In this document: positions 33,001 through 36,000 of the stretch, piece by piece
Layout of the letters: each line of letters opens with the position of its first letter
How positions within the stretch are numbered: position 1 is the stretch's first letter
NCBI RefSeq assembly: GCF_044647545.1
Contig: NZ_CP172818.1
Source of the DNA: Escherichia coli
GTDB lineage: Bacteria; Pseudomonadota; Gammaproteobacteria; Enterobacterales; Enterobacteriaceae
Direction: 5' to 3' (one strand)
DNA length: 64,000 nucleotides
Position numbers: made by a program

Positions 33001-36000
33001 CAACCGGGCTTTTTGGGCATCTGGTGGGGGCGATAGCGGGTGGAGCGGTTTACCGTAAATCTACCTTCCTGCTGGATTCGCTGGGTAAACAAATTCTGCC
33101 GGACTGGCTGACCATTGAAGAGCATCCGCATCTGCTGAAAGGGCTGGCATCGACGCCATTTGACAGCGAAGGTGTGCGCACCGAGCGTCGCGATATTATT
33201 AAAGATGGCATCCTGACTCAGTGGCTGCTGACCAGCTATTCGGCGCGAAAACTGGGGCTGAAAAGCACCGGACATGCGGGCGGTATTCACAACTGGCGGA
33301 TTGCCGGACAAGGGCTAAGCTTCGAACAAATGCTCAAAGAGATGGGCACCGGGCTGGTGGTGACGGAGCTGATGGGCCAGGGCGTGAGTGCAATTACCGG
33401 TGATTATTCCCGTGGTGCGGCGGGCTTCTGGGTAGAAAACGGCGAAATTCAGTATCCGGTTAGCGAAATCACCATCGCAGGTAATTTAAAAGATATGTGG
33501 CGCAATATTGTCACCGTCGGTAACGATATTGAAACACGCAGTAATATACAGTGTGGTTCTGTGCTGTTGCCGGAGATGAAAATCGCCGGGCAGTAAAAAA
33601 CTGGCGCGACCTGCCGCGCCAATCTTCATAAAGGAAGTGAGCAATGCGTAAAAGCCTGTTAGCTATTCTTGCAGTCTCCTCGTTGGTATTCAGTTCGGCG
33701 TCGTTTGCCGCTGATCTTGAAGACAATATGGAAACCCTCAACGACACTTTAAAAGTGGTCGAAAAAGCCGATAACGCGGCGCAAGTCAAAGACGCGTTAA
33801 CGAAGATGCGCGCCGCAGCGCTGGATGCGCAAAAAGCAACGCCGCCGAAGCTCGAAGATAAATCACCGGACAGCCCGGAAATGAAAGACTTCCGTCACGG
33901 TTTCGATATTCTGGTTGGTCAGATTGACGACGCGCTGAAGCTGGCAAATGAAGGTAAAGTAAAAGAAGCGCAGGCTGCCGCAGAGCAACTGAAAACGACC
34001 CGCAACGCCTATCACCAGAAGTATCGTTAATTCCTCATTTCCCTGTTGCCTGCACTCAGGTAACAGGGAACTTATCATCGCAAATGATGCACCACCTGAT
34101 TGCTGCTGCCGCGCCAGATCAGGGAAGGGTCTTTTAAATCCTGCACAAATTTGCCGTCGACCAGTACGTTAATCAAATCAACAACCTGCATTTGCGCAGC
34201 GTTGAGATCGTCGAGTTTATAGCCTGTCCACACCCAGATGTCTTTATCCGGACACTCGGCGCGGATGCGTTTTACCAGTTTCAGAATATCCGGCACGTTT
34301 TGCGGATGCAGCGGATCGCCGCCGGAGAGGGAAATCCCCTGGCGTTTGATACGAGTGTCATTCAGATCGTTAATGATCTGGTCTTCCATTGCTTTGGTAA
34401 ATGGCTGACCAGAATTTACCCGCCATGTGCTTTTGTTATAGCAACCGGGGCATTCATGAACACACCCGGAGACAAACAGGGTGCAGCGAGTGCCGGGGCC
34501 GTTGACGATGTCGACAGGATAGTACTGATGATAATTCATTATTTCGCCTGGCTTATCAGTCCGCGTGTAGGCTGCATCCGGTAATCAATGCCTGATGCGA
34601 CGCTGTCGCGTCTTATCAGGCCTACACAGCCGTTGCCAAATGTAGGCCGGATAAGGCGTTTACGCCGCATCCGGCATTTGCTTAGCGCAGAGTGAAGATT
34701 AACCTATCTGCCCATTCCCCAAATGTTTAACGCGGCGCTTAACTTCTTCCTGCTTACCAGCGTTAAACGGACGTGCATCCGGGCTACCTAAATATCCGCA
34801 CACGCGGCGAGTTACCGACACACGGGAGGCGTCATGGTTACCACATTTCGGGCAAGTAAAGCCTTTGCTGGTGCACTCGAACTCACCGGTAAAGCCACAC
34901 TCGTAGCACTCATCAATCGGTGTATTGGTGCCGTAATACGGTACATGCTGATAGCTGTAATCCCAGACATCTTCCAGCGCTTTCAGGTTGTGCTGAATGT
35001 TTGGATACTCGCCGTAGCAAATGAAACCACCGTTCGCCAGCGGCGGGTAAGGCGCTTCAAAGTCGATCTTGTCGTACGGGTTAACCTTCTTCTCCACATC
35101 AAGGTGGAAACTGTTGGTGTAGTAACCTTTATCGGTCACGCCCGGCACCACGCCAAACTCAGCAGTATCGAGACGGCAGAAGCGGTCGCACAGGTTTTCA
35201 CTCGGCGTGCTGTAGAGACTGAAACCATAACCCGTTTCTTCTTTCCACTGATCCACTGCCTGACGCAGACGTTCAACAATCGCGATACCTTTCGCGCGGA
35301 GCTGCTCGTTGTCGTAAACATGCTCGCCGCCGAACAGCGCGTTAATGGTTTCGTGGATGCCGATGTAACCCAGCGAAATAGACGCACGACCGTTTTTGAA
35401 GATTTCAGAAACATCATCGTCAGCATTCAGACGCACGCCACAAGCACCTTCCATATAAAGGATCGGGGCCACGCGCGCTTTCACGCCTTCCAGACGAGCG
35501 ATACGGGTCATCAGCGCCTTACGTGCCAGCACCAGACGTTCATCCAGCAGCTTCCAGAAGGTGGCTTCATCGCCTTTTGCTTCCAGAGCAATACGCGGCA
35601 GGTTCAGGCTGATCACGCCGAGGTTGTTACGACCATCGTGGATCTGCTCGCCGTTTTCATTTTCCCACACGCCGAGGAAGCTGCGGCAGCCCATCGGGGT
35701 TTTAAACGAACCGGTGACTTTCACTACCTGATCGTAGTTCAGGATATCCGGATACATGCGCTTGCTTGCGCACTCCAGCGCCAGCTGTTTGATGTCGTAG
35801 TTCGGATCGCCTTTTTTATGGTTCAGACCATCGCGAATCGCAAACACCAGTTTCGGGAACACCGCAGTTTTACGGTTTTTACCGAGACCTGCGATACGGT
35901 TACGCAGGATAGATTCCTGAATCAGGCGCGATTCCCAGCTGGTGCCCAGACCAAAACCAAAAGTTACAAACGGCGTTTGACCGTTGGCGGTATGCAGGGT

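What the first reader, a model, noticed from the sequence alone, without database searches (positions are those of the whole stretch)
33644..34030. cybC looks intact here
The ORF encodes a full cytochrome b562 precursor with an N-terminal signal peptide. From memory, the K-12 reference copy is annotated as a truncated pseudogene, so this would be another non-K-12 feature of this strain.
Basis: partly seen in the sequence, partly recalled or inferred. Interest (0 to 1): 0.2.

Follow-up and report, generated by a model that had tools for sequence, protein, structure and literature searches.

The report
Intact cybC; K-12 copy is truncated
The window carries a normal, full-length gene for the periplasmic haem protein cytochrome b562, which is the usual state in E. 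coli, whereas laboratory K-12 strains are the exception because a 26-base deletion removed the start of their copy.

Summary
Both the observation and the interpretation hold, but the finding is ordinary and already known.

- **The gene.** Window 33644..34030 (+) is a 128-aa ORF. It matches Pfam Cytochrom_B562 over the full model (114.6 bits, cut-off 30). It is identical to RefSeq WP_001232255.1 and differs from E. coli B REL606 CybC at two residues (N35T, I39V). The solved mature protein (256B/1APC) starts at residue 23, so residues 1-22 are the signal peptide. The haem ligands Met7 and His102 (M29, H124) are present.
- **K-12.** The curated MG1655 record marks cybC (b4236) as a pseudogene. 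Alignment shows a 26-bp deletion, equivalent to window 33637-33662. It removes the spacer after the Shine-Dalgarno sequence, the ATG and codons 1-6.
- **Distribution.** The K-12 deletion junction occurs in 355 of 5,426 complete E. coli genomes, and all 60 listed are K-12 derivatives or K-12-sized genomes. 5,067 genomes keep the intact 5' end.
- **Strain.** The window is not K-12 (98.4-98.5 % identity on both flanks).

Additional points:
- About 72 % of genomes carry a ~144-nt ERIC-family palindrome between pmbA and cybC. The window lacks it.
- The window's spacer is 7 nt shorter than in its closest relatives.
- PGAP annotates the K-12 remnant as a 121-aa CDS with an ATT start.

The parts
33644..34030 (+). 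cybC coding sequence: 128-codon cytochrome b562 precursor plus TAA stop
   Evidence: ORF list. Pfam PF07361, 114.6 bits. PDB matches. Identical to WP_001232255.1.
33644..33709 (+). Signal peptide, residues 1-22 ([22 protein letters not shown])
   Evidence: Solved mature chains 1apc/256b (106 aa) align to residues 23-128. The n-, h- and c-region layout is read directly from the sequence.
33710..34027 (+). Mature cytochrome b562, 106 residues, with haem ligands Met7 (M29) and His102 (H124)
   Evidence: M29 and H124 are invariant across the five aligned alleles. Ligand identity is taken from PMC12844524.
33631..33637 (+). Shine-Dalgarno sequence AAGGAAG, with its AGGA core 8 nt upstream of the ATG
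   Evidence: Read from the sequence. Conserved in all aligned alleles.
33637..33662 (+). The 26 nt (GTGAGCAATGCGTAAAAGCCTGTTAG) deleted in K-12. Present and intact here.
   Evidence: Alignments of the window, 2014C-4135, 21AH006 and MG1655. The K-12 junction probe hits 355 of 5,426 genomes. The intact-5'-end probe hits 5,067 of 5,426.
33620..33630 (+). Short A/T-rich pmbA-cybC spacer. In about 72 % of E. coli genomes a ~144-nt ERIC-family palindrome occupies this site. The window has no element and is 7 nt shorter than other element-free alleles.
   Evidence: Alignments. Element count of 3,885 of 5,426 genomes. Zero mismatches and two gaps totalling 7 nt over 12 kb against CFSAN061763.
33602..33621 (+). 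G+C-rich 7-bp hairpin just after the pmbA stop codon
   Evidence: RNA fold of the 53-nt fragment 33594-33646, which contains this hairpin: -15.7 kcal/mol, z -2.7. Conserved in all aligned strains.
34039..34070 (.). 14-bp stem-loop between the convergent genes cybC and nrdG. Probably a transcript 3'-end structure, but it has no canonical U-tract.
   Evidence: RNA fold: -23.3 kcal/mol (z -6.9) on the + strand and -19.5 kcal/mol (z -5.2) on the - strand. Not picked up by the terminator scan.
32244..33596 (+). Upstream neighbour pmbA (tldE), same strand, 47 nt before cybC
   Evidence: ORF list. Annotation of syntenic loci.
34075..34539 (-). Downstream neighbour nrdG, convergent with cybC
   Evidence: ORF list. 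Annotation of syntenic loci.

Best explanation
Window 33644-34030 is the wild-type, intact cybC gene, in its conserved position between pmbA (tldE) and nrdG. It encodes the 128-residue precursor of soluble cytochrome b562.

**Shown here**
- The ORF is complete and has a Shine-Dalgarno sequence.
- It is identical to a RefSeq cytochrome b562 protein.
- It covers the family model fully.
- The mature part coincides with the solved 106-residue protein.
- The two axial haem ligands are present.

**Inferred from established knowledge of this protein**
- The 22-residue signal peptide directs Sec export and is cleaved before ADLEDN.
- The four-helix bundle binds one non-covalent haem b through Met7 and His102.
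- It acts as a small periplasmic electron-transfer protein. Its physiological partner is still unknown.

**The contrast with K-12**
The difference is real and has a simple cause. The K-12 lineage has a 26-bp deletion that removes the 7 nt between the Shine-Dalgarno sequence and the ATG, the ATG itself, and codons 1-6 (M-R-K-S-L-L) plus the first base of codon 7. That takes away the start codon and the basic n-region of the signal peptide. The deletion is confined to K-12 derivatives, so the intact gene is the normal E. coli state.
For: - ORF and sequence.
- Pfam PF07361: 114.6 bits against a cut-off of 30, model positions 1-102 of 102.
- PDB: 9tmp_A (128 aa) E 1.3e-76; 1apc/256b/1qpu (106 aa) align to residues 23-128.
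- Protein alignment: 100 % identical to the 2014C-4135 CybC, 98 % to REL606, 21AH006 and the K-12 remnant, with M29 and H124 invariant.
- MG1655 annotation: cybC b4236 is a pseudogene at 4459488..4459855.
- The 26-bp deletion is defined by alignment.
- The K-12 junction occurs in 355 of 5,426 genomes. Most of the 60 listed carry K-12 strain names (MG1655, BW25113, DH1, DH5alpha, C600, J53, MC4100, TG1 and others), and the rest are K-12-sized genomes.
- The intact 5' end occurs in 5,067 of 5,426 genomes, and 5,067 + 355 = 5,422, all the genomes that matched.
- Synteny pmbA-cybC-nrdG-nrdD holds in every locus examined.
[quoted passage not shown] Native cytochrome b562 is produced in the periplasm of B-derived strains (PMC13041623). 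His102 and Met7 coordinate the metal (PMC12844524). [quoted passage not shown]
Against: Nothing found contradicts this. There are four gaps.
- No promoter-like site was found in 33300-34200 by the consensus scan. It is therefore unknown whether cybC is co-transcribed with pmbA or has a weak promoter of its own.
- Expression, export and haem loading in this particular strain are inferred, not shown.
- The spacer just upstream of the Shine-Dalgarno sequence is 7 nt shorter than in any of the 5,426 complete genomes, and the effect on expression is untested.
- The physiological role of cytochrome b562 is unknown.
Confidence: 0.95

Rival explanations
1. The K-12 copy is not truly dead. The remnant is still translated from an alternative start, either the ATT that PGAP uses or the in-frame TTG 18 nt further on. 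On this reading 'intact versus pseudogene' overstates the difference between this strain and K-12.
For: PGAP annotates a 121-aa CDS named 'cytochrome b562' (WP_023649327.1) in the K-12 derivative 7FA. Its first codon is ATT, 3 nt after the retained AGGA. The features under the match are named 'cybC: cytochrome b562' in all 60 listed genomes with the K-12 junction. The reading frame downstream of the deletion is open, and a 115-aa TTG-initiated ORF exists. The mature-protein part and both haem ligands are intact in K-12.
Against: The ATG, the normal spacing between Shine-Dalgarno sequence and start codon, and the basic n-region (R2, K3) needed for Sec targeting are all lost. The curated MG1655 record calls it a pseudogene, as does the literature. 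cybC transcript is much lower in MG1655 than in REL606. Even if the remnant is translated, the sequence difference from the window remains.
Confidence: 0.08
2. The ORF in the window is intact on paper but poorly expressed. The strain-specific 7-nt shortening of the A-rich spacer brings CUUC (33624-33627) closer to GAAG (33634-33637). That would favour a small hairpin that partly occludes the Shine-Dalgarno sequence.
For: The minimum-free-energy fold of 33594-33646 pairs CUUC with GAAG across a 6-nt loop. The two indels (1 + 6 nt) are the only differences from CFSAN061763-type strains in 12 kb. No complete genome has this exact spacer: the best hit over 651 nt is 99.5 % with gaps.
Against: A 4-bp stem is very weak. 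The fragment's fold energy (-15.7 kcal/mol, z -2.7) comes mostly from the conserved pmbA-proximal hairpin. The same CUUC...GAAG complementarity exists in the longer alleles. The spacer varies in length between strains anyway, for example in BS-01. The indels lie in A-runs and could be sequencing or assembly errors.
Confidence: 0.05
3. The apparent intact gene is an assembly or annotation artefact, or a chance ORF.
For: None found.
Against: The protein is identical over all 128 residues to a RefSeq protein found in several independent genomes. There are no mismatches to several genomes over 12 kb of flanking sequence. The family model is covered in full.
Confidence: 0.01

Closest known systems
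E. coli soluble cytochrome b562 (CybC; E. coli B protein; PDB 256B, 1APC, 1QPU; RefSeq WP_001232255.1)
   Same: Same gene in the same chromosomal position (pmbA-cybC-nrdG) and the same length of 128 aa. The signal peptide is identical. The mature protein is 106 aa with Met7 and His102. The protein is 100 % identical to WP_001232255.1 and 98 % identical to the REL606 (E. coli B) protein.
   Different: Two substitutions relative to E. coli B REL606: N35T and I39V, which are mature residues 13 and 17 in helix 1. At the DNA level there are 9 differences in 387 nt. REL606 has the ERIC-family element upstream of cybC and the window does not.
K-12 cybC' pseudogene (b4236, MG1655)
   Same: Orthologous locus with the same neighbours. 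The 368 nt from codon 7 to the stop codon align without gaps.
   Different: K-12 lacks 26 nt: the spacer, the ATG and codons 1-6. It carries the ERIC-family element upstream. It differs at 13 of 368 nt, giving T35N, A122S and Q125K. The window has none of these.
ERIC/IRU intergenic repeat (the element present upstream of cybC in most E. coli)
   Same: Not present in the window, so this is relevant only as context. The pmbA-cybC element is a ~144-nt imperfect palindrome (-63.8 kcal/mol, z -8.95). It aligns end to end with a copy between rhlB and gppA (score 84 against a shuffle mean of 16). That copy in turn matches the ERIC1R/ERIC2 primer core (score 40 against a shuffle maximum of 26).
   Different: Direct similarity of the pmbA-cybC copy to the ERIC primer core is not significant: 164 of 1,000 shuffles score as well. 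Its central stem has changed sequence. It has no Rfam family and is not annotated as a repeat in MG1655.

Membership tests
Cytochrome b562 (Pfam PF07361; E. coli CybC) | Sequence matches the family profile above the curated threshold over its full length | tested here: met
   114.6 bits against a cut-off of 30. Residues 24-128 cover model positions 1-102 of 102.
Cytochrome b562 (Pfam PF07361; E. coli CybC) | Axial haem ligands Met7 and His102 (mature numbering) | tested here: met
   M29 and H124 of the precursor are present and invariant in the alignment. Ligand identity is taken from PMC12844524.
Cytochrome b562 (Pfam PF07361; E. coli CybC) | Near-identity to the experimentally solved four-helix-bundle protein | tested here: met
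   1apc/256b/1qpu E 2.4e-63, chain residues 1-106 aligned to query 23-128. 9tmp_A E 1.3e-76 over residues 1-128.
Cytochrome b562 (Pfam PF07361; E. coli CybC) | N-terminal cleavable signal peptide for periplasmic export | tested here: met
   Residues 1-22 precede the mature N-terminus seen in the solved chains. A basic n-region, a hydrophobic core and S-F-A at -3 to -1 are read from the sequence. Export itself was not tested.
Cytochrome b562 (Pfam PF07361; E. coli CybC) | Conserved chromosomal position between pmbA (tldE) and nrdG | tested here: met
Cytochrome b562 (Pfam PF07361; E. coli CybC) | Binds haem b and shows the 562-nm alpha band; transfers electrons | not testable with these tools
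   Requires spectroscopy of periplasmic extract or purified protein.
K-12-type cybC' pseudogene | The 26-bp deletion junction ...AAAAAAGGAA|CTATTCTTGCAG... | tested here: not met
   The window contains the 26 nt at 33637-33662. The junction is found only in 355 genomes; most of the 60 listed carry K-12 strain names and all have K-12-like genome sizes.
ERIC/IRU element upstream of cybC | A ~127-144-nt imperfect palindrome between pmbA and cybC | tested here: not met
   The window spacer is only 47 nt. A blastn search with the element against the whole window found nothing.

The most novel reading that the evidence does not exclude
The pmbA-cybC spacer exists in three states across E. coli: no element, an ERIC-family palindrome, and the palindrome plus the K-12 deletion. 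The most novel reading not excluded is that this polymorphism, together with the window's unique 7-nt-shorter A-rich spacer, tunes cybC expression. The window's allele would then represent an unusual expression state of a protein whose physiological role is still unknown.
Probability: 0.07. Interest if true: 0.25.

Novelty: already known. Interest (0 to 1): 0.06.

Why it matters
It matters very little as a discovery. It confirms that the source strain is an ordinary non-K-12 E. coli with the wild-type cybC. It is also a reminder that K-12 is atypical at this locus. Two practical points follow.

1. RefSeq's automated annotation of K-12 derivatives calls the truncated gene an intact 'cytochrome b562' with an ATT start, while the curated MG1655 record calls it a pseudogene. 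Annotation-based presence/absence comparisons at this locus are therefore unreliable.
2. Strains with an intact cybC make native cytochrome b562, which co-purifies with anti-BRIL reagents (PMC13041623). This is relevant when choosing expression hosts.

Tried and rejected
- **ERIC by direct comparison.** I tested the similarity of the pmbA-cybC element to the ERIC1R/ERIC2 primer core. It was not significant, with 164 of 1,000 shuffles scoring as well. I therefore did not call the element ERIC on that basis. The transitive route through the rhlB-gppA copy did support membership of the family.
- **Rfam.** The MG1655 cybC region gave no match. Window 33200-34700 gave only sub-threshold naRNA4 (REP-derived) hits in the nrdG-nrdD spacer and nothing at cybC.
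- **Promoter and terminator scan of 33300-34200.** No sigma-70-like promoter was found. The three terminator-like hits on the minus strand all lie inside coding sequences and do not differ from shuffle expectation. The cybC promoter therefore remains unlocated.
- **MG1655 repeat annotation.** I looked for a curated repeat feature at pmbA-cybC and at rhlB-gpp that would name the element. There is none.
- **Is the window a near-clone of CFSAN061763?** No. It is identical only across 28000-40000 and 99.1-99.3 % identical elsewhere, so it is mosaic.
- **Not run.** Structure prediction, large protein searches and metagenome scans were not used, because a solved structure of a near-identical protein and 5,426 genomes already answer the question.

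Full report
**Observation.** Window 33644..34030 (+) is an ATG-initiated ORF of 128 codons ending in TAA. A Shine-Dalgarno sequence, AAGGAAG, lies at 33631-33637, with its AGGA core 8 nt before the ATG. The ORF sits 47 nt downstream of pmbA/tldE (32244..33596, +). It is convergent with nrdG (34075..34539, -), which is followed by nrdD. The antisense and out-of-frame ORFs listed in the interval are short and overlap this gene. I treat them as mechanical by-products.

**What it encodes.** The product matches Pfam PF07361 (Cytochrom_B562) over the whole model: positions 1-102 of 102, 114.6 bits against a cut-off of 30, E 3.9e-33.

Against solved structures:
- the 128-residue precursor chain 9tmp_A matches residues 1-128 (E 1.3e-76);
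- the classical 106-residue chains 1apc, 256b and 1qpu match residues 23-128 (E 2.4e-63).

The first 22 residues ([22 protein letters not shown]) are therefore the signal peptide, and the mature protein starts at ADLEDN. The leader has a basic n-region, a hydrophobic core, and S-F-A at positions -3 to -1.

The axial haem ligands of cytochrome b562 are Met7 and His102 in mature numbering (PMC12844524). They correspond to M29 and H124 here, and both are invariant in the alignment.

The protein is identical to RefSeq WP_001232255.1, annotated 'cytochrome b562', in strains BS-01, 2014C-4135, CFSAN061763 and EH08-18-36. Compared with E. coli B REL606 (WP_001232240.1) it differs at two residues, N35T and I39V, and at 9 of 387 nucleotides.

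**The K-12 comparison.** The curated MG1655 record (NC_000913.3) annotates cybC, b4236, as a pseudogene at 4459488..4459855. That is 368 nt, exactly 19 nt shorter than the 387-nt gene.

Aligning the window, two strains with the common allele (2014C-4135, 21AH006) and MG1655 shows a clean 26-bp deletion in K-12. The missing sequence is GTGAGCAATGCGTAAAAGCCTGTTAG, equivalent to window 33637-33662. It removes:
- the 7 nt between the Shine-Dalgarno sequence and the ATG;
- the ATG;
- codons 1-6 (M-R-K-S-L-L) and the first base of codon 7.

The placement of the deletion is unambiguous. What K-12 loses is the start codon, normal initiation geometry and the basic n-region of the signal peptide. The rest of the frame stays open, and a 115-aa TTG-initiated ORF remains.

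The shared 368 nt differ at 13 positions between the window and MG1655. Relative to the window, the K-12 remnant reads N35, S122 and K125 (T35N, A122S, Q125K).

**Distribution.** Two probes were run against 5,426 complete E. coli genomes.

| Probe | Genomes matched |
|---|---|
| 51 nt centred on the K-12 deletion junction (too short on either side to seed a match alone) | 355, all at 100 % |
| 60 nt across the intact Shine-Dalgarno sequence, ATG and 5' codons, at least 80 % covered | 5,067 |
| Same 60-nt probe, partial match only | 355 |

- Most of the 60 listed junction-positive genomes carry K-12 strain names (MG1655, BW25113, DH1, DH5alpha, C600, J53, MC4100, TG1, HMS174, NCM3722, S17-1 and others). 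The rest have K-12-like genome sizes of 4.52-4.77 Mb.
- The listed partial match covers only the 28 nt downstream of the deletion.
- The two classes add up exactly: 5,067 + 355 = 5,422 genomes matched.

Intact cybC is thus the species norm (93 %), and the truncation is a private lesion of the K-12 lineage.

The literature already records this. [quoted passage not shown] PMC3446290 lists cybC among genes highly expressed in REL606 relative to MG1655. B-derived expression strains produce native periplasmic cytochrome b562 (PMC13041623).

**Is the window non-K-12?** Yes. It is 98.43 % and 98.48 % identical to MG1655 on the two sides of the lesion. Over window 28000-40000 it has no mismatches to CFSAN061763, and all 15 listed best hits tie at 99.9 % with the same score. 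Outside that block it is 99.1-99.3 % identical to the same strain, so it is a mosaic relative and not a clone.

**Anatomy around the gene.** The pmbA-cybC spacer comes in three states.

- **(a) No element, as in the window.** The spacer is 47-54 nt.
- **(b) A ~144-nt element inserted after ...CTGCCGCGC.** It is present at 90 % identity or more in 3,885 of 5,426 genomes, about 72 %. REL606 carries it.
- **(c) State (b) plus the 26-bp deletion, in K-12.**

The element is an imperfect palindrome (-63.8 kcal/mol, z -8.95). Copies about 72 % identical exist elsewhere, for example between rhlB and gppA, with a median of 3 detectable places per genome.

A direct comparison of the element with the ERIC1R/ERIC2 primer core was not significant. 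The primer sequences were confirmed in PMC11040821. However, the rhlB-gppA copy matches that core clearly: score 40 against a shuffle mean of 14 and a maximum of 26. The pmbA-cybC element aligns with that copy end to end: score 84 against a shuffle mean of 16. I therefore assign it to the ERIC/IRU family by transitive similarity. The window contains no copy.

Within the element-free class, the window's spacer is 7 nt shorter than in CFSAN061763 and EH08-18-36. The differences are CAAATC to CAATC and CATAATAAAAAAGG to CATAAAGG. It is 3 nt shorter than in BS-01. These two indels are the only differences from CFSAN061763 in 12 kb. No complete genome has this exact spacer; the best hit is 99.5 % with gaps. 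The Shine-Dalgarno sequence and the ATG are untouched. I cannot tell whether this is real variation in an A-rich tract or a sequencing error.

Two hairpins flank the gene:
- a 7-bp G+C-rich stem just after the pmbA stop (33602-33621), conserved in all aligned strains;
- a 14-bp stem-loop at 34039-34070 between the convergent cybC and nrdG (-23.3 kcal/mol, z -6.9).

The second has no U-tract and the terminator scan does not detect it. No sigma-70-like promoter was found in 33300-34200. Whether cybC is co-transcribed with pmbA or has its own promoter is left open.

**Mechanism.**

| Status | Steps |
|---|---|
| Shown | A complete precursor ORF with translation signals; identity to the known protein; ligands present |
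| Inferred from established knowledge of cytochrome b562 | Sec export; cleavage after SFA; a four-helix bundle binding one non-covalent haem b through Met7/His102; periplasmic electron transfer (PMC2490766) |
| Unknown | The physiological redox partner |

**Rivals.**
1. The K-12 remnant might still be translated. PGAP annotates a 121-aa 'cytochrome b562' CDS in K-12 derivatives, and its first codon is ATT, 3 nt after the retained AGGA. The loss of the ATG and the n-region, the curated pseudogene status and the lower transcript level all argue against function. I give this about 0.08. It would not change the sequence contrast in any case.
2. The short spacer could weaken translation through a 4-bp CUUC/GAAG stem. 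This is weak and speculative, about 0.05.
3. An artefact or chance ORF is excluded by identity to proteins in independent genomes.

**Verdict.** Observation confirmed and interpretation supported. The feature is ordinary and already known: it is the wild-type state of a textbook gene, and K-12 is the outlier. Interest is low. The small added value is:
- the exact definition of the K-12 lesion;
- its restriction to 355 K-12-type genomes;
- the three-state spacer polymorphism;
- the inconsistency between curated and automated annotation of the K-12 remnant.

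Noticed in passing
window 33620-33632: The A/T-rich spacer just upstream of the cybC Shine-Dalgarno sequence is 7 nt shorter (1 + 6 nt) than in the closest relatives. 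Those relatives are otherwise identical over 12 kb, with 0 mismatches. No complete E. coli genome among 5,426 has this exact spacer. It may be real tract-length variation or a sequencing or assembly error.
   Followed up: partly
L004:1622-1765 (also L001:4337-4481 and REL606 L006); absent from the window: A ~144-nt imperfect palindrome lies between pmbA and cybC in 3,885 of 5,426 genomes. It folds at -63.8 kcal/mol. It is related to a copy between rhlB and gppA, and through that copy to the ERIC primer core. It is not annotated as a repeat in MG1655.
   Followed up: yes
L002:1776-2141 (K-12 derivative 7FA): PGAP annotates the truncated K-12 cybC as a 121-aa 'cytochrome b562' CDS (WP_023649327.1) starting at an ATT codon. 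The curated MG1655 record marks the same sequence as a pseudogene. The features under the match are named 'cybC: cytochrome b562' in all 60 listed genomes with the K-12 junction.
   Followed up: yes
L005:2358-2880 (strain 21AH006; also hits H38 and H39): Some E. coli strains carry a relB/relE-type toxin-antitoxin pair inserted between cybC and nrdG. The window has only the 44-nt spacer with the hairpin at that position.
   Followed up: no
window 34039-34070: A strong 14-bp stem-loop lies between the convergent genes cybC and nrdG (-23.3 kcal/mol, z -6.9 on the + strand; -19.5 kcal/mol on the - strand). It has no U-tract on either strand and the terminator scan misses it.
   Followed up: partly
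window 34559-34686: Three overlapping sub-threshold matches to Rfam naRNA4 (35-41 bits against a gathering score of 59.5) fall on both strands of the nrdG-nrdD spacer. From my own knowledge, naRNA4 derives from a REP element, so these probably mark REP/BIME repeats.
   Followed up: no
window 50212-51360: This stretch is much more diverged than its surroundings: 87.7-92.9 % identity to REL606 and CFSAN061763, against 97-99 % nearby, with short unaligned gaps. It corresponds to the gene between tabA and argF, annotated 'hypothetical protein' in REL606 and as a frameshifted 'DNA-binding protein' in CFSAN061763.
   Followed up: no
window ~2778-2781 (L012:29377-31126 in CFSAN061763): CFSAN061763 has a 1.75-kb IS200/IS605-type insertion (tnpA pseudogene plus TnpB) that splits a TetR/AcrR regulator gene. 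The window lacks the insertion at that point.
   Followed up: no
window 28000-40000 versus the rest of the window: The window is identical to CFSAN061763-type strains (0 mismatches) only within about 12 kb around cybC. It is 99.1-99.3 % identical outside that block, which suggests a recombination mosaic.
   Followed up: partly
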